Assembly: GCA_001730065.1 (NCBI GenBank)
Contig: MDLE01000006.1
Span: 74,938-138,937 of the forward strand
Direction: 5' to 3'
Length of the DNA stretch: 64,000 bases
DNA from: Rickettsiales bacterium (ex Bugula neritina AB1)
Lineage (GTDB): Bacteria > Pseudomonadota > Alphaproteobacteria > CAJXXZ01 > UBA1459
The position numbers and the translations under genes are program-made. Positions 25,682-30,728 of the stretch are shown in pieces (positions within the stretch are counted from its first letter, which is position 1; the number at the start of each line of letters is the position of its first letter). Below the pieces are notes generated by a model. The model was not told the origin of the DNA. It did no database searches and was given only the letters and a program-made list of their open reading frames with translations.

Positions 25682-27553
25682 TTAAAAAAAATCTTGAGGA
25701 TTAATATCAATTTTGATATTATAAAACTTTTCTTTTATTAGCATAAAATGTTTGTATGGTATTTTTTTAGTATTAATTAAAATAAAAAAACGGTATTTAT
25801 CTTTAATTTTACTAATTTGATTATTTGTAGGTGGAAATACTTTCATATCTAAAGAAAACTTGATAATTTCTTCATATACATTTTTAATAAAATTACTTGC
25901 TTTAATAGGATTTTTATCTTCATGAGTAATTAAAATTAAATTAGAAAAAGGTGGTAAATTATTTTTTTTTCTATTATTTAAAATTTTTTCTAAAAAATAC
26001 AAATAACGGGATTCTTCAATTTTTGTTTTAAAATCATTATCTATTTGTATCATTACTTTTCCTTTTATACTTCCTCTACCACAACGACCAGAAACTTGAA
26101 TAATTGTTTGTAGAAGTTTCTCTAAACTTCCTGGATCAAAACCTAAAAAATTATTATTTAAAATTGCTACTAAACCAATATTTAAAAAATTATGACCTTT
26201 TGCCACTAATTGTGTACCAATAATAATTGAGTATTTATTATTCTCTACATCTTGAATAAACTCTTTAATTTTTTTACTGCTATTACAAAAATCACTAGAA
26301 AAAATTCCTACATTTTCATTTGGAAAAATTTTTTTTATATATTCACTAACACGTTCTACACCATATCCATATACAATAATTCCACCATTTTTTTTACAAC
26401 TTAAGCAATTATTTATATACTCCTTACCACATAAGTGACATATTAGTTTGCATTTTAAGCGATGAAAAATTAAATTACTATCACAATGTAAACATTTTTG
26501 TAAATGTTTACATATAAAACACATAGAAATAGTTCCAAAACCTCTTTTATTAAGAAAAATTAATACTTGTTGTTTTTTACTAAGAGTAATTTTGATATTT
26601 TGTAAAATCTTTTCATGAAAAATAATATTATTTTTATTTTTATGACTTATCATATCAATTTCTGGTAATGAACGAGATAAAAATCTTTCCGTTAAAGAAA
26701 GTAATTTATAGTTATCATTTTGACACTCATAAAAACTACTACTAGAAGGCGTAGCAGATCCCATTACCACAGGTATATTAAAAATACTTCCTAATAACTT
26801 ACTCATTTCACGGCCATCATATCCGCCAACTTCTTTATAAGAACTATCATGTTCTTCATCAATGATTATAATACCTAATTTTTTAAAAGGTAAAAAAACA
26901 CTTGATCTTGCTCCTATTACTAATACTGCCTCACCATCATGTACTCTTTGCCATCCACTAGAGGTTTTTACACCTGAAAACCATCTTATAGGTAAAATAC
27001 CTATTTTTTCTAATTTTATTTCTAAACTACTTATAATACCAATTTCTGGCATCATAAATAATACTTGTTTATTTGATTTTAAGTTATCTTCTATAAGTTT
27101 TAAATAAATTTCGGTTTTTCCAGCACCAGTAAGACCAAAAAGTAAAATTTTTTTATGAGTATTATAATAATTTTTTATACTTTCATAAACATTTTTTTGA
27201 GATAAAGTTAATTCATTTAATAAAATAAAATTATTATTTATACTTTTAAGTTTTAAGGGTTTTTTAGGAATTTTATACAATAAATACTTTAAAGATACAC
27301 CAATTTTTATAATATTTAAATAATGAAATTGTTGAATGAAATTTAAATTATTAGAAAATAATTTAAATTTTGTAATAGAAATAATTTCTTTTCTAATATA
27401 TTCTACATTAGTATTATTATCAATAATATCTATTATTAATCCAAAATATATTTTATTTTTTACAGGCACTTTAACTATAGAAAGTTTTTCTATTAAATTA
27501 GAAGAAACATATTCATATATATTATGGTTTTCTACCAAAATCTTATATATCAT
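25682..27553 (-). CDS. priA: primosomal replication restart helicase PriA
   Basis: GLTGAGKTEIY Walker A, IIIDEEHD, Cys-rich zinc region CFICKHLQKCLHCDSNL...CHLCG, GTQLVAKGHNF and SGRCGR motifs. Confidence 0.9.
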   Translation of the reverse strand: MIYKILVENHNIYEYVSSNLIEKLSIVKVPVKNKIYFGLIIDIIDNNTNVEYIRKEIISITKFKLFSNNLNFIQQFHYLNIIKIGVSLKYLLYKIPKKPLKLKSINNNFILLNELTLSQKNVYESIKNYYNTHKKILLFGLTGAGKTEIYLKLIEDNLKSNKQVLFMMPEIGIISSLEIKLEKIGILPIRWFSGVKTSSGWQRVHDGEAVLVIGARSSVFLPFKKLGIIIIDEEHDSSYKEVGGYDGREMSKLLGSIFNIPVVMGSATPSSSSFYECQNDNYKLLSLTERFLSRSLPEIDMISHKNKNNIIFHEKILQNIKITLSKKQQVLIFLNKRGFGTISMCFICKHLQKCLHCDSNLIFHRLKCKLICHLCGKEYINNCLSCKKNGGIIVYGYGVERVSEYIKKIFPNENVGIFSSDFCNSSKKIKEFIQDVENNKYSIIIGTQLVAKGHNFLNIGLVAILNNNFLGFDPGSLEKLLQTIIQVSGRCGRGSIKGKVMIQIDNDFKTKIEESRYLYFLEKILNNRKKNNLPPFSNLILITHEDKNPIKASNFIKNVYEEIIKFSLDMKVFPPTNNQISKIKDKYRFFILINTKKIPYKHFMLIKEKFYNIKIDINPQDFF

Positions 27554-27582: not shown

Positions 27583-29458
27583 TTATTTAATAGCTTTAGA
27601 AACTCTTCCTACTAATTGAAGATATTCTTCAATTAGACCTTCTAAAACTTTAGCCTTTTTCTGAAGACGAGCATTTTGTATTTTTAATTCTTTATCATTA
27701 GATGAATTACTATTTTTTAAGTTTTCTATTTCTTTTTTAAGATGATCATTTTCTGTTTTTAATTCTTTATCTACATTTTTATTAGATGAATTACTATTTT
27801 TTAAGTTTTCTATTTCTTTTTTAAGATGATCATTTATTAGATGAATTACTATTTTTTAAGTTTTCTATTTCTTTTTTAAGATGATCATTTTGTATTTTTA
27901 ATTCTTTATCATTAGATGAATTACTATTTTTTAAGTTTTCTATTTCTTTTTTAAGATGATCATTTTCTGTTTTTAATTCTTTATCTACATTTTTATTAGA
28001 TGAATTACTATTTTTTAAGTTTTCTATTTCTTTTGTAAGACGATCATTTTCTATTTTTAAACTTTCATCGAAGTTTTTATTAGATAAATTACTATTTTTT
28101 AAGTTTTCTATTTCTTTTTTAAGATGATCATTTTCTGTTTTTAATTCTTTATCTACATTTTTATTAGATAAATTACTATTTTTTAAGTTTTCTATTTCTT
28201 TTGTAAGACGATCATTTTCTATTTTTAAACTTTCATCGAAGTTTTTATTAGATAAATTACTATTTTTTAAGTTTTCTATTTCTTTTTTAAGATGATCATT
28301 TTCTGTTTTTAATTCTTTATCTACATTTTTATTAGATAAATTACTATTTTTTAAGTTTTCTATTTCTTTTGTAAGACGATCATTTTCTATTTTTAAACTT
28401 TCATCGAAGTTTTTATTAGATAAATTACTATTTTTTAAGTTTTCTATTTCTTTTTTAAGATGATCATTTTCTGTTTTTAATTCTTTATCTACATTTTTAT
28501 TAGATGAATTACTATTTTTTAAGTTTTCTATTTCTTTTTTAAGATGATCATTTTCTGTTTTTAATTCTTTATCTACATTTTTATTAGATGAATTACTATT
28601 TTTTAAGTTTTCTACTTGTTGATTTTTATTTAATATAATATTACTAATATCTGCTGCTGATTTAATACGTTCTTTTTCTCTTATCATAGAATTTATTTGA
28701 TCTTCTCTTTTCATGTTCTTATAGACATTAAAATTATTCATTCTATATTTTTCCATTTCTTGTCGAAATTCTAATTGTTTACGTTGTTCTTCTAATTGAT
28801 GTCGAGCTATATTTTCTTTCATAGTTAGTTCATATTCTCGATCCTGTAATTTTTTAGCTAATTTCATTTCTTTCATTCTTTCTTTATAATAATTCTCTAA
28901 TTCACTTAAGCCTTGTATTTTATTATTATCTTCTTCAGAAAAATCTTCAATTTCTTCCGTATCATATAAATCATTATTATAATAAAATAATTCTTTTTGT
29001 TTTTTCAATTTTTGTTTTTTTTTCTTATTTTCTTCTTCTTGTTTTTTCTTATTTTCTTCTTGTTTTTTATTAGAACGTATTTCATTTAATAAATTCTTTA
29101 AATCATTAGATAATGTTAATATATCATTATTTGGTTTGTTATTTAAATTTTTTATCAATTGAATTAAATTTTCCATACTTTGTCTGTTACTATTATTTAT
29201 TTGATTGAAATTAGAACATAAAGCATTCATTGTATCATTAACATTTTTTAATCCATCATTAACACTATCAAAAGAAACTCTACGAATTGCTTGTTGACCT
29301 TTCTTGTTGTTTTCAACAACATAAAAGTTGCCGTTAATATTTTTGTCTTTTCTATGTGTTTCACACAAACCTACTTTTATTTCTCCAGTAATATTATAAT
29401 GATTGATTATTAAAAACAAAAAAAAAATATTACATTTTGTACTTATATTGTATTTCAT
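27583..29458 (-). pseudogene. secreted coiled-coil tandem-repeat protein, reading frame broken inside the repeat array
   Basis: The 542-aa ORF (29458->27830) has a signal peptide and repeats and ends at a TGA created by a 29-nt gap relative to the neighbouring repeat units (at 27835/27836). The repeat sequence continues in another frame from 27855 down to TAA at 27583-27585 (...NDHLKKEIENLK...AKVLEGLIEEYLQLVGRVSKAIK*). Confidence 0.6.
27670..28615 (-). repeat. array of about 11 tandem 84-bp (28-codon) coding repeats in two alternating variants
   Basis: Variant A is NSN(S/L)SNKNVDKELKTENDHLKKEIENLK and variant B is NSNLSNKNFDESLKIENDRLTKEIENLK. A 168-bp A+B super-unit is repeated three times. 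Confidence 0.9.
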
Positions 29459-29516: not shown

Positions 29517-30728
29517 TTATTTATCCTTAAAAAATTTTTTTACAAATATTAATTTTGGTAAAATACCATAATATTTAAAATAAAATACTAAATTATTTAA
29601 TAGATATAATTTATAATCTGTGTTTAGTTTAGTTTTAGAATATATATAAAAAATAGGATAATCTCCATTATTTTTTATTTTTATACTTATATTATATGAG
29701 GTACCATTAATAACAGGTTTTTTGATATTTTCATACCACTTATCCAACTGATATTGAGATATTTTTTTATTTATCGACAGAAAAATTTTATTAATTTCTT
29801 TAAAAATAGATTTAGTATCTTTGTTATATAATGTGGAAAAAAAGATGTATGGTATATAATTTTTAATTTTCCAATATTTAAAATCATGATGGTGATTTTC
29901 TTTATTTATTAAATCTTCTTTATTAAATATAATTAATAAACCTTTATTTTCCTTTTCTACTAAACTTATCATCCATTTGTCCCAATGGGTAAAACCAACA
30001 GAAAGATCAACTACTAGCACACATATTGTTGATAAATTAATAATGGTTTTTGTTTTGCGCATACTAATTTTTTCCACATCCGTATTGATATGACTAAAAC
30101 CAGCGGTATCTATAAAATAATAGTCATTTACTATTTCTTTAACGGGATCCCTTGTAGTAGCAGGTGTACTACTAACTTTTGATCTATTTTTTTTGCATAT
30201 TAAATTCATAAGAGAAGATTTACCACTATTAATACGACCAATAATACTTATAATAGGGTATTTATTTTCCAAATTATTAACACCTAAAAAATTTCTTAAT
30301 TCCTTAATTCCTACGTTGTTTTTAGAAGATACATAAAATACAGATAATGCACCAGTTTTTTCCCAATTCTTGTAAGAATAATTTCCCATATCACATTTTG
30401 TAATGACAAGATAAAAGTTAATTTTATGTCTTCTTAGTTCACGAAAATTATTTCTATCATATTCCTGTATATCATTCCAGGGTAATGCGTATAAAACATA
30501 TGTAGCTTTTTTTAAATTATCACTTATTGTGTTTTTATGGGTACCTATATTATCTGTAATTACAAAATTTTCCCCCCAAAAACGCACATAGTCACGAGTT
30601 GTATCTTTAATAGAAGAAGTTTTAACAACCCTATCTGATAAAACAATTGATATTTTTTGACGTAATAAACTATTAAAAAGGGATGACTTACCAACAGCTG
30701 TTCTTCCTATTATTTCTATAAAATTCAT
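29517..30728 (-). CDS. der: ribosome-associated GTPase Der/EngA (two GTPase domains)
   Basis: Two G-domains: GRTAVGKSSLFN...DTTRD...TKCD and GRINSGKSSLMN...TTRDP...DTAG...NKED, followed by a C-terminal KH-like domain. Confidence 0.9.
   Translation of the reverse strand: MNFIEIIGRTAVGKSSLFNSLLRQKISIVLSDRVVKTSSIKDTTRDYVRFWGENFVITDNIGTHKNTISDNLKKATYVLYALPWNDIQEYDRNNFRELRRHKINFYLVITKCDMGNYSYKNWEKTGALSVFYVSSKNNVGIKELRNFLGVNNLENKYPIISIIGRINSGKSSLMNLICKKNRSKVSSTPATTRDPVKEIVNDYYFIDTAGFSHINTDVEKISMRKTKTIINLSTICVLVVDLSVGFTHWDKWMISLVEKENKGLLIIFNKEDLINKENHHHDFKYWKIKNYIPYIFFSTLYNKDTKSIFKEINKIFLSINKKISQYQLDKWYENIKKPVINGTSYNISIKIKNNGDYPIFYIYSKTKLNTDYKLYLLNNLVFYFKYYGILPKLIFVKKFFKDK

What the first reader, a model, noticed from the sequence alone, without database searches (positions are those of the whole stretch)
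27583..29458. Secreted coiled-coil protein built from 84-bp repeats is interrupted by a 29-nt deletion inside the array
The gene has a signal peptide, a charged Lys/Glu-rich region and about 11 tandem 28-aa heptad-like repeats in two alternating variants.

At 27835/27836 one unit lacks 29 nt relative to its neighbours: gatcattt|attagatg versus gatcattt-tctgtttttaattctttatctacattttt-attagatg. This shifts the frame and creates the TGA at 27830.

The repeats and a non-repeat C-terminal tail (AKVLEGLIEEYLQLVGRVSKAIK*) continue intact in another frame down to 27583. The locus is therefore one of three things:

- a very recent pseudogene
- an on/off (phase-variable) surface protein switched by repeat recombination or slippage
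- a mis-assembly of a repeat region

Repeat-bearing surface proteins are classic host-interaction determinants in obligate intracellular bacteria.
Basis: seen in the sequence. Interest (0 to 1): 0.6.

Follow-up and report, generated by a model that had tools for sequence, protein, structure and literature searches.

The report
Frame-broken repeat gene upstream of priA
A fast-evolving exported helical protein gene of a tiny bryozoan-associated endosymbiont has blown one 28-residue segment up into about a dozen copies, and one out-of-register copy cuts off its conserved tail. This is an ordinary kind of repeat lesion, and the low-coverage short-read assembly cannot show whether it is fixed, mixed or spurious.

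Summary
On the minus strand, a 542-codon ORF (29458-27830) carries a signal-like start, a Lys/Glu tract and an 84-nt repeat array. One unit (27865-27811) is 55 nt long. It can be read equally as a 29-nt deletion or as a perfect 55-nt tandem duplication, with 3 nt of microhomology. It creates a TGA at 27832-27830, and 90 further codons stay open in the +1 frame down to 27583.

New here: the gene is not a true orphan. One intact 530-aa orthologue sits directly upstream of priA in a related uncultured bacterium. Its C-terminus aligns end-to-end with the distal-frame tail, so that tail is ancestral and the break is derived. The 84-nt array is specific to this lineage.

The genome is the AB1_rickettsiales bin from Bugula neritina. 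It was assembled with SPAdes (k 33/55/77) from 101-nt reads with 300-nt inserts, at k-mer coverage 2.3x. The array contains a 503-nt perfectly periodic block, so the copy number cannot be resolved. The junction itself needs several reads to support it.

Best reading (0.55): a real, recent slippage lesion that truncates the protein. Rivals:
- assembly or minor-variant path (0.30)
- contingency switch (0.08)
- recoding (0.02)

Interest is low to moderate.

The parts
27830..29458 (-). Proximal ORF, 542 aa, ending at a premature TGA (27832-27830). It encodes the signal-like N-terminus, the K/E tract, the conserved helical core and repeat units 1 to mid-10.
   Evidence: The 5' 741 nt are identical in an independent Logan contig of SRR4020084.
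29384..29458 (-). Signal-peptide-like N-terminus (MKYNISTKCNIFFLFLIINHYNITG). The KCNI-FFLF block, and the VGLC..H.K motif a few residues downstream of this part, are conserved in the orthologue.
   Evidence: alignment A1. Read from the sequence; no signal-peptide predictor was available.
28991..29071 (-). Lys/Glu-rich tract built from degenerate 21-24-nt repeats. The orthologue has one too.
28646..28903 (-). Best-conserved helical core (aa 186-271). It is 31% identical and 64% similar to orthologue residues 171-256.
   Evidence: E 2e-10; E 1e-13 across the whole library; AF2 helix 181-288 with pLDDT 80-90
27672..28612 (-). Array of 84-nt (28-aa) units. There are 12 anchors; units 1-8 and 11 are 84 nt, unit 9 is 75 nt, unit 10 is 55 nt, and unit 12 (75-nt type) merges into the unique tail.
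28003..28505 (-). Perfectly periodic block (period 168, 2.99 copies, 335-nt exact self-match). It is longer than the library's ~300-nt inserts, so the copy number is not determinable from the published data.
27811..27865 (-). The 55-nt out-of-register unit (unit 10). The junction falls within AAA at 27833-27835.
27778..27890 (.). Perfect 55-nt tandem duplication (2.05 copies, 100% identity), an equivalent description of the lesion. It is the only perfect tandem duplication in the 436-kb genome that interrupts a long ORF.
27583..27855 (-). Distal +1 frame: 90 codons plus TAA, with no internal start codon. It holds part of unit 10, unit 11, unit 12 and the tail.
27586..27687 (-). Conserved C-terminal tail LKIQNARLQKKAKVLEGLIEEYLQLVGRVSKAIK. 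It aligns end-to-end with the last 34 residues of the orthologue (14/34 identical, 25/34 similar).
25682..27553 (-). priA (623 aa), 29 nt downstream of the distal stop. The orthologue shows the same adjacency, with a 27-nt spacer and a 623-aa PriA that is 75% identical.
29517..30728 (-). der (engA) GTPase, 58 nt upstream on the same strand. This side of the synteny is not shared with the orthologue's contig.

Best explanation
This is the AB1_rickettsiales copy of a lineage-restricted, fast-evolving, Sec-exported helical protein gene that sits just upstream of priA in both organisms known to carry it.

In this lineage one 28-residue helix-plus-linker segment was amplified into at least 11 nearly identical 84-nt units. 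RecA is present, so homogenisation or recent expansion can keep the units identical.

A single illegitimate slippage event at a 3-nt microhomology (AAA within AAAATG motifs) produced one 55-nt unit. It can be read as a 29-nt deletion or as a 55-nt tandem duplication. It shifts the frame by +1 and stops translation at TGA 27832-27830.

The allele therefore encodes a 542-aa product. That product keeps the signal peptide, the conserved core and nine and a half repeats, but loses the last two units and the conserved amphipathic C-terminal tail.

The event is very young: nothing downstream has decayed. It may be fixed or only frequent in the one colony sampled. It is a mutational accident in an unstable array, not a designed switch.

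Shown: the anatomy, the orthology, the ancestral status of the tail and the derived status of the break. Inferred: that the junction exists in the DNA rather than only in the assembly, the slippage mechanism, export through Sec, and the consequences for the protein.
For: 1. **Anatomy:**
2. **Orthologue:**
   - An exhaustive HMMER search of 1.84 billion cluster representatives with aa 1-290 finds exactly one relative, P0003 (530 aa, E 1e-13).
   - P0003 lies immediately upstream of a 623-aa priA on three Logan contigs.
   - PriA is 75% identical between the two organisms. The protein itself is only about 30% identical.
   - P0003's last 34 residues align with the distal-frame tail, both ending at the C-terminus.
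   - P0003 is one uninterrupted ORF without the 84-nt array.
3. **Youth of the event:**
   - The distal 90 codons are open (P about 2e-4 for 84 random codons at this composition; about 0.05 for the 29 non-repeat codons).
   - Unit 11 is base-identical to units 1, 2 and 8.
4. **The junction is unlikely to be made by the assembler:**
   - In the k-mer graph of the deposited sequence it lies in a 202-nt stretch unique at k=77, and a 105-nt stretch unique at k=55.
   - A 101-nt read gives at most 25 77-mers or 47 55-mers, so several differently placed reads must carry the junction.
   - In the junction register the flanks share only 3 nt, so joiners that need a longer end overlap (about 10 nt in SPAdes's gap closer, as I recall) cannot have produced it (my reading of the sequence).
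   - No other 33-, 55- or 77-nt duplications exist in the genome, and contig ends share no k-sized overlaps.
5. **Machinery:** RecA and MutS are present, so recombination among units is possible.
6. **Precedent:** an unchecked first-reader note reports other decaying surface-protein genes in this genome.
Against:
- The assembly is about the worst case for such an array: 101-nt reads, ~300-nt inserts, k of at most 77, k-mer coverage 2.3x, plus a custom iterative re-assembly.
- Other arrays in this genome break contigs.
- The duplicated length, 55, equals one of the three k values used.
- The gene is conserved in a relative and sits in a compact operon-like row. A break that coincides with the least reliable kilobase of the contig is therefore suspicious.
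- The 542-aa product is absent from the protein collection although both neighbours are present, so the depositors' annotation did not accept this ORF as it stands.
Confidence: 0.55

Rival explanations
1. Assembly artefact or wrong path. The true major allele is in frame. The 55-nt unit comes from a mis-join during SPAdes or the custom iterative re-assembly, or from a minor variant that the assembler threaded into the consensus as an optional 214-nt loop (end of unit 9, unit 10 and unit 11).
For: - The data were 101-nt reads with 300-nt inserts, k = 33/55/77, k-mer coverage 2.3x, followed by iterative re-assembly.
- A 503-nt perfectly periodic block lies inside the array.
- A second array at the end of contig C6 stops after a similar 492 nt. 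This suggests the assembled array lengths reflect a ceiling set by the data.
- In the k=77 graph, the segment carrying the junction is a loop that leaves and re-enters shared nodes, so a path without it is also valid.
- 55 equals one of the k values used.
- The gene and its tail are conserved in the relative, and nothing else in the gene is damaged.
Against: - The junction needs novel k-mers across 105-202 nt, which neither one chimeric read nor a pure path choice can supply.
- The flanks share only 3 nt at the junction, too little for overlap-based gap closing.
- There is no other k-sized duplication in the genome and no k-sized overlap between contig ends.
- Base-level quality is otherwise good: the 5' 813 nt are identical in an independent Logan assembly, and neighbouring genes are intact.
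Confidence: 0.3
2. Contingency (on/off or long/short) locus. The perfect 55-nt tandem duplication is lost and regained by slippage or RecA-mediated unequal exchange. This would switch the cell between a full-length protein with the tail and a tail-less 542-aa form.
For: - A perfect 113-nt direct repeat is intrinsically unstable, and loss of one copy restores a 621-codon open frame.
- RecA is present.
- The protein is exported, fast-evolving and repeat-bearing, like the variable surface proteins of other host-dependent bacteria.
- The downstream frame is perfectly preserved.
Against: - There is no short-unit tract. All other units are multiples of three (84 or 75 nt).
- Across the genome, perfect tandem duplications are almost all 3n, and this is the only one that breaks an ORF.
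- The forward event needs a 3-nt microhomology and would be far rarer than the reverse, so it is not a symmetric switch.
- The orthologue has neither the array nor a frameshift.
- No population data exist.
Confidence: 0.08
3. The frame is restored during expression. This could be a +1 ribosomal frameshift at AAA-UGA, or a -1 transcriptional slip in the A6 run of unit 10. Either would still yield a full-length protein.
For: - A stop codon in the A site immediately after the shift point is the classic stimulus for a +1 shift.
- Deleting one A in CTTAAAAAATAG gives a stop-free path into the distal frame (my reading of the sequence).
- AT-rich endosymbionts are known to rescue frameshifts by slippage at poly(A) (general knowledge, not tested here).
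Against: - AAA to AAU re-pairing is poor, and there is no upstream Shine-Dalgarno-like stimulator.
- A6 is shorter than the tracts known to slip efficiently.
- The orthologue is a single ORF, so recoding is not a conserved feature.
- The break coincides with a structural repeat lesion, not with a conserved recoding site.
Confidence: 0.02

Closest known systems
P0003, an unnamed 530-aa protein on Logan contigs of ERR10466833, ERR10466835 and ERR10466838 (uncultured relative; PriA 75% identical)
   Same: - It has a signal-like N-terminus with the KCNI-FFLF and VGLC..H.K motifs.
- It has a K/E tract and the conserved helical core.
- It has a long helical C-terminal half and a conserved terminal tail.
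- It lies directly upstream of priA with a 27-29-nt spacer.
   Different: It is a single intact ORF. It has no 84-nt array; the region that resembles the unit (residues 400-427) occurs once, and that resemblance is weak (21 of 500 shuffles reach its score). Overall identity is only about 30%.
Tandem-repeat proteins and actively variable tandem repeats of Anaplasmataceae (Ehrlichia TRPs; E. ruminantium, Collins et al. 2005, PMC545511, cited in PMC5041132)
   Same: These are near-identical tandem coding repeats in exported or host-facing proteins of small intracellular alphaproteobacteria. Copy number changes by slippage or recombination.
   Different: There is no sequence relationship. Ehrlichia TRPs are acidic, Ser-rich type I secretion substrates (from memory). 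This protein is N/K/E/L-rich and helical, has an N-terminal signal, and no TolC-family protein was found in the genome.
Identical-repeat surface proteins of Gram-positive cocci (group B streptococcal alpha C/Rib, M proteins) and Mycoplasma Vlp/Vsa size variants (from memory)
   Same: Long arrays of identical in-frame units sit within a helical or extended exported protein. Repeat deletions and expansions generate length variants.
   Different: Those variants stay in frame. Their on/off switching uses separate devices such as promoter tracts or inversions. They carry wall or lipid anchors that are absent here.
Simple-sequence contingency loci (Haemophilus, Neisseria, Campylobacter; Moxon's concept; from memory)
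   Same: Frame loss in a host-interaction gene through strand slippage in repeated DNA.
   Different: Contingency loci use 1-8-nt units in long tracts with symmetric, high-rate gain and loss. This is a one-off 55-nt (or 29-nt) event in an array of 84-nt, frame-neutral units.

Membership tests
priA-upstream exported helical protein (the two-member family defined here with P0003) | N-terminal signal-like hydrophobic segment followed by a VGLC..H.K motif | tested here: met
   Alignment A1: K8 C9 N10 I11 F12 F13 L14 F15 ... V29 G30 L31 C32 H35 K37 are invariant.
priA-upstream exported helical protein (the two-member family defined here with P0003) | Conserved central helical block | tested here: met
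   E 1e-13 across the library, aa 8-271; aa 186-271 versus 171-256, E 2e-10.
priA-upstream exported helical protein (the two-member family defined here with P0003) | Conserved C-terminal tail that ends the protein | tested here: met
   14/34 identical, and both alignments end at the last residue. In this genome the tail lies in the +1 frame, behind the premature stop.
priA-upstream exported helical protein (the two-member family defined here with P0003) | Gene immediately upstream of priA on the same strand | tested here: met
   spacers of 29 nt here and 27 nt in the relative; PriA is 623 aa in both.
Phase-variable contingency locus | Tract of short repeat units whose length is not a multiple of three (or a homopolymer), in the ORF or the promoter | tested here: not met
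   units are 84 or 75 nt (multiples of three). There is a single 55-nt unit and no short-unit tract at the break.
Phase-variable contingency locus | Both frames or lengths present within a population or among strains | not testable with these tools
No strain more than 90% identical exists in the collections.
Programmed +1 frameshift (prfB type) | Slippery codon plus stop, with an upstream SD-like stimulator, conserved among orthologues | tested here: not met
   The site is AAU AAA UGA with no SD-like element. The orthologue is one ORF.
Type I-secreted tandem-repeat effectors (Ehrlichia TRP type) | TolC-type outer-membrane factor in the genome, and no N-terminal signal peptide | tested here: not met
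   PF02321 was not found in the 436-kb assembly (the assembly may be incomplete). The protein has a signal-like N-terminus.
Pfam HALZ (homeobox-associated leucine zipper, PF02183) | A single leucine zipper next to a plant homeodomain | tested here: not met
   the summed score of 35.8 bits exceeds the 28.1 cut-off, but no single stretch passes and no homeodomain is present. The hit reflects the L-x6-L pattern repeated in each unit.
Continuous coiled-coil fibre | Unbroken heptad register through the repeats | tested here: inconclusive
   (single-sequence AF2, pLDDT 65, pTM 0.22): 22-residue helices are separated by 5-7-residue low-confidence N/S-rich breaks in most units. Within a unit, L17-N21-L24-I28-L3' follows a d-a-d-a-d pattern.

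The most novel reading that the evidence does not exclude
In a 436-kb, RecA-proficient endosymbiont, a conserved exported protein is toggled between a tailed full-length form and a tail-less form by gain and loss of one out-of-register 55-nt repeat unit. That would be a duplication-based contingency switch built on a long-unit array, in one of the smallest genomes known to have one.
Probability: 0.08. Interest if true: 0.55.

Novelty: new member of a known kind. Interest (0 to 1): 0.28.

Why it matters
**If the lesion is real.** It catches a conserved, exported, fast-evolving protein of a minimal endosymbiont at the moment of truncation. It also shows that long-unit arrays in such genomes generate frame-breaking alleles as well as length variants. 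That bears on how host-facing proteins are lost during genome reduction.

**If it is an artefact.** It is a useful warning: repeat-gene 'pseudogenes' in low-coverage short-read MAGs should not be counted as gene decay.

**Either way.** The practical gain is that this supposed orphan now has an orthologue, conserved synteny with priA and a defined ancestral C-terminus. The fast-evolving Holosporaceae-like clade of the Bugula neritina bin has an unsampled sister species in public reads.

Tried and rejected
- The look-up of sequencing runs and read laying were both closed, so no read-level test was possible.

**Homology searches that found nothing**
- Word-indexed homology search of aa 1-290: nothing.
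- Search of 41 related GTDB genomes: nothing credible. The only hit had E 3.6e-4 on the repeat region.
- Genome-contig scan: nothing.
- Exact look-up of the 542-aa product: not on record.
- Re-search with P0003: only itself.

**Family libraries**
- Pfam gave only a summed HALZ hit with no passing stretch. NCBIfam gave only sub-threshold coiled-coil noise.

**Synteny**
- der and priA are not adjacent in eight reduced genomes of the same order, and their proteins are only 24-39% identical to these. Those genomes are too distant to help.

**Tests for a systematic k-mer-overlap artefact**
- No other perfect duplications of 33, 55 or 77 nt exist in the genome.
- Contig ends share no k-sized overlaps.

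**Other checks**
- Other perfect duplications whose length is not a multiple of three do not break ORFs. The 16-nt case at C6:141858 is an 8-nt microsatellite just past a gene's stop codon.
- Derivation of the 28-aa unit from a single segment of the orthologue is only weakly supported (21 of 500 shuffles reach the score).
- Fold search was not run, because the model's pTM of 0.22 would give meaningless matches.
- Searches for the run accessions in the literature found nothing.
Full report
**1. The observation**

The window has 20.9% G+C. On the minus strand an ATG at 29458 opens a 542-codon frame that ends at TGA 27832-27830. At this composition a random codon is a stop with probability 0.097, so an open run of 542 codons is not chance (about 1e-24).

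The product starts MKYNISTKCNIFFLFLIINHYNITG. That is two lysines, a nine-residue hydrophobic core and a small-residue cleavage-like site. It has a K/E tract at about aa 129-156. From aa 283 it consists of 28-residue units.

At the DNA level the anchor GAAAACTTAAAAAATAGTAAT occurs 12 times, with spacings 84 x8, 75, 55 and 84. Units 1, 2, 8 and 11 are base-identical. Units 3, 5 and 7 are identical to each other, and so are units 4 and 6.

The junction is ambiguous over AAA (27833-27835). Downstream, the +1 frame is open for 90 codons to TAA 27585-27583 and contains no possible start codon.

The same lesion is, letter for letter, a perfect 55-nt tandem duplication (27778-27890). The two descriptions cannot be told apart from the sequence.

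**2. What the gene is**

Word-indexed searches, 41 related genomes and the species-level genome collection gave nothing. An exhaustive HMMER pass of aa 1-290 over 1.84 billion cluster representatives gave exactly one hit, P0003 (530 aa, E 1e-13).

P0003 is encoded on three Logan contigs (ERR10466833, ERR10466835, ERR10466838). On each it lies directly upstream of a 623-aa priA with a 27-nt spacer. Here the spacer from the distal stop to priA is 29 nt, and PriA is also 623 aa.

The two PriA proteins are 75% identical without gaps. The two copies of this protein are about 30% identical. It is therefore a syntenic orthologue that evolves much faster than its housekeeping neighbour.

Conserved features are:
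- the signal-like start (KCNI-FFLF)
- a VGLC..H.K motif holding the only conserved cysteine of the mature part
- the K/E tract
- a helical core (aa 186-271, E 2e-10)
- the very C-terminus

On the last point, P0003's final 34 residues (LKEKMQRVVKKNEVLEKLNQQYTELLQKLSKSIQ) align with the distal-frame tail (LKIQNARLQKKAKVLEGLIEEYLQLVGRVSKAIK). Both alignments end at the last residue (14/34 identical, 25/34 similar).

The distal frame is the ancestral C-terminus, and the interruption is derived.

P0003 has no 84-nt array. The array is therefore a lineage-specific amplification. Its unit resembles P0003 residues 400-427, but only weakly (21 of 500 shuffles do as well).

No curated family fits. Pfam gives only a summed HALZ leucine-zipper score with no passing stretch, and NCBIfam gives only sub-threshold coiled-coil noise.

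A single-sequence AlphaFold model (pLDDT 65, pTM 0.22) is almost all helix. A confident helix spans 181-288. In the array, roughly 22-residue helices are interrupted by 5-7 low-confidence residues at most NSNSSNK or NSNLSNK stretches. Within a unit the hydrophobic positions L17-N21-L24-I28-L3' follow a d-a-d-a-d pattern. The picture is short zipper-like helices on N/S-rich linkers rather than one continuous rod.

**3. Where it comes from, and what that means for reliability**

[quoted passage not shown] Here the genome has 8 contigs, 435,544 nt, and contig C6 is 177,484 nt. A recent review places the B. neritina bacterium among fast-evolving Holosporaceae.

The assembly used Illumina HiSeq paired 101-nt reads with ~300-nt inserts. 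It was built with SPAdes 3.1.1 with -k 33,55,77 --careful. This was followed by a custom loop of read mapping and re-assembly. The k-mer coverage at k=77 is 2.3x, which is roughly 9x base coverage.

Against that, the array contains a 503-nt block that is perfectly periodic at 168 nt, with a 335-nt exact self-match. No read pair can span it, so the number of units is not determinable from those data.

Other arrays in the genome break contigs:
- C6 ends after 492 nt of a perfect 156-nt period.
- C6 begins in the same kind of repeat.
- C2 and C7 also end in repeats.

An independent Logan assembly of SRR4020084 reproduces der and the first 741 nt of the gene without a single difference. It stops 106 nt before the array.

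**4. Is the junction real?**

I rebuilt the k-mer graph of the deposited region. At k=77 the path runs through 13 distinct unitigs. All copy-number ambiguity lies in shared nodes, which are frame-neutral. The junction sits in one 202-nt stretch (27961-27760) whose 126 77-mers are unique. At k=55 its private stretch is 105 nt.

A 101-nt read yields at most 25 77-mers or 47 55-mers. One chimeric read cannot create this path, and PCR duplicates would not tile it.

In the junction register the two flanks agree in only 3 nt. Joiners that need about 10 nt of end overlap, as I recall for SPAdes's gap closer, cannot have made it either.

I also looked for a systematic k-overlap artefact, because 55 is one of the k values used. 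No other perfect duplication of 33, 55 or 77 nt exists in the genome, and contig ends share no k-sized overlaps.

On the other side:
- The segment carrying the junction is topologically an optional 214-nt loop in the graph.
- Coverage is very low.
- The last assembly step was a custom script.
- The break falls in the least trustworthy kilobase of a conserved gene.
- Neither the 542-aa product nor any long product of this gene is in the protein collection, although both neighbours are.

I put a real junction at about 0.65-0.7 in total. That splits into 0.55 for a plain recent lesion, fixed or frequent, 0.08 for a functional switch, and a little for recoding. Artefact or minor-variant path gets 0.30.

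**5. Mechanism and consequences (inferred)**

RecA and MutS are present. Identical units can therefore be maintained by conversion and can expand by unequal exchange.

The odd unit needs an illegitimate event at AAA/AAAATG, which is typical of replication slippage. It is the only perfect tandem duplication in the genome that interrupts a long ORF. Nearly all the others have periods divisible by three.

The truncated allele keeps 542 of about 621-625 codons and loses the conserved amphipathic tail. The tail has a much more regular hydrophobic pattern (VL..LI..YL.LV..V..AI) than the units do. It may act as an oligomerisation or anchoring element.

Neither a TolC-family protein nor VirB4 was found. 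The Sec pathway is therefore the only export route in evidence; first-reader notes (unchecked) place yidC and lepB in the window.

A stop 276 nt before priA leaves an untranslated stretch in what looks like a der-X-priA transcription unit. That gap ranks 37th of 320 gaps in the genome, against a median of 62 nt.

Loss of one 55-nt copy by slippage is mechanistically easy, so reversion is plausible. The forward event is rare, however, the units are frame-neutral, and the orthologue shows no such device. I therefore do not regard this as a contingency locus.

Recoding is unlikely. AAA-UGA gives poor re-pairing, there is no stimulator, the A6 run is short, and the site is not conserved.

**6. Verdict**

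This is a new member of a known kind: a tandem-repeat exported protein of a host-dependent bacterium carrying a slippage lesion.

The useful new facts are:
- the orthologue
- the conserved synteny with priA
- the ancestral tail
- the lineage-specific array
- the provenance of the assembly, which limits what can be claimed

Interest is low to moderate. One read-mapping or amplicon experiment would settle the matter.

Noticed in passing
G000 contig C6:176440-177484 and C6:1-700 (outside the window; window = C6:74938-138937): Contig C6 ends inside a 150/156-nt tandem array of a gene with a signal-like start (MNVKNIFLFNTIIFFSV...). It begins in the same kind of repeat (..IAVLSNETKRENHLIEV..), which runs into a unique tail with a TM helix. 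The two contig ends look like halves of one repeat-protein gene split by an unresolvable array. The contig may close on itself.
   Followed up: partly
L022 (Logan ERR10466833 contig, 38.5 kb), L023, L024: An undescribed sister organism is present in three public runs. Its PriA is 75% identical and the locus has 22-27% G+C. It is far closer than anything in the 41 GTDB relatives searched, whose PriA is at most 36% identical. Its host and sample are unknown.
   Followed up: partly
whole genome G000: Perfect tandem duplications are almost all multiples of three: 12, 15, 18, 21, 27, 84, 102, 156 and 168 nt. The exceptions are eight cases of 13-55 nt. This is consistent with selection filtering slippage products in a genome that is about 90% coding.
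   Followed up: yes
whole genome G000: RecA (C1:45956-46741) and MutS (C3:19481-20023) are present in a 436-kb genome. No TolC-family (PF02321) or VirB4 (PF03135) match was found. The assembly may be incomplete.
   Followed up: partly
window 28991-29071 and L022:8306-8409: Both orthologues carry a degenerate AAG/GAA-rich microrepeat encoding the K/E tract at the same relative position. This is a second, older slippage-prone segment of the gene.
   Followed up: no
window 28718: The independent Logan contig of SRR4020084 ends 106 nt before the array, in unique sequence. That fits a coverage gap in a roughly 9x data set rather than a repeat-induced break.
   Followed up: no
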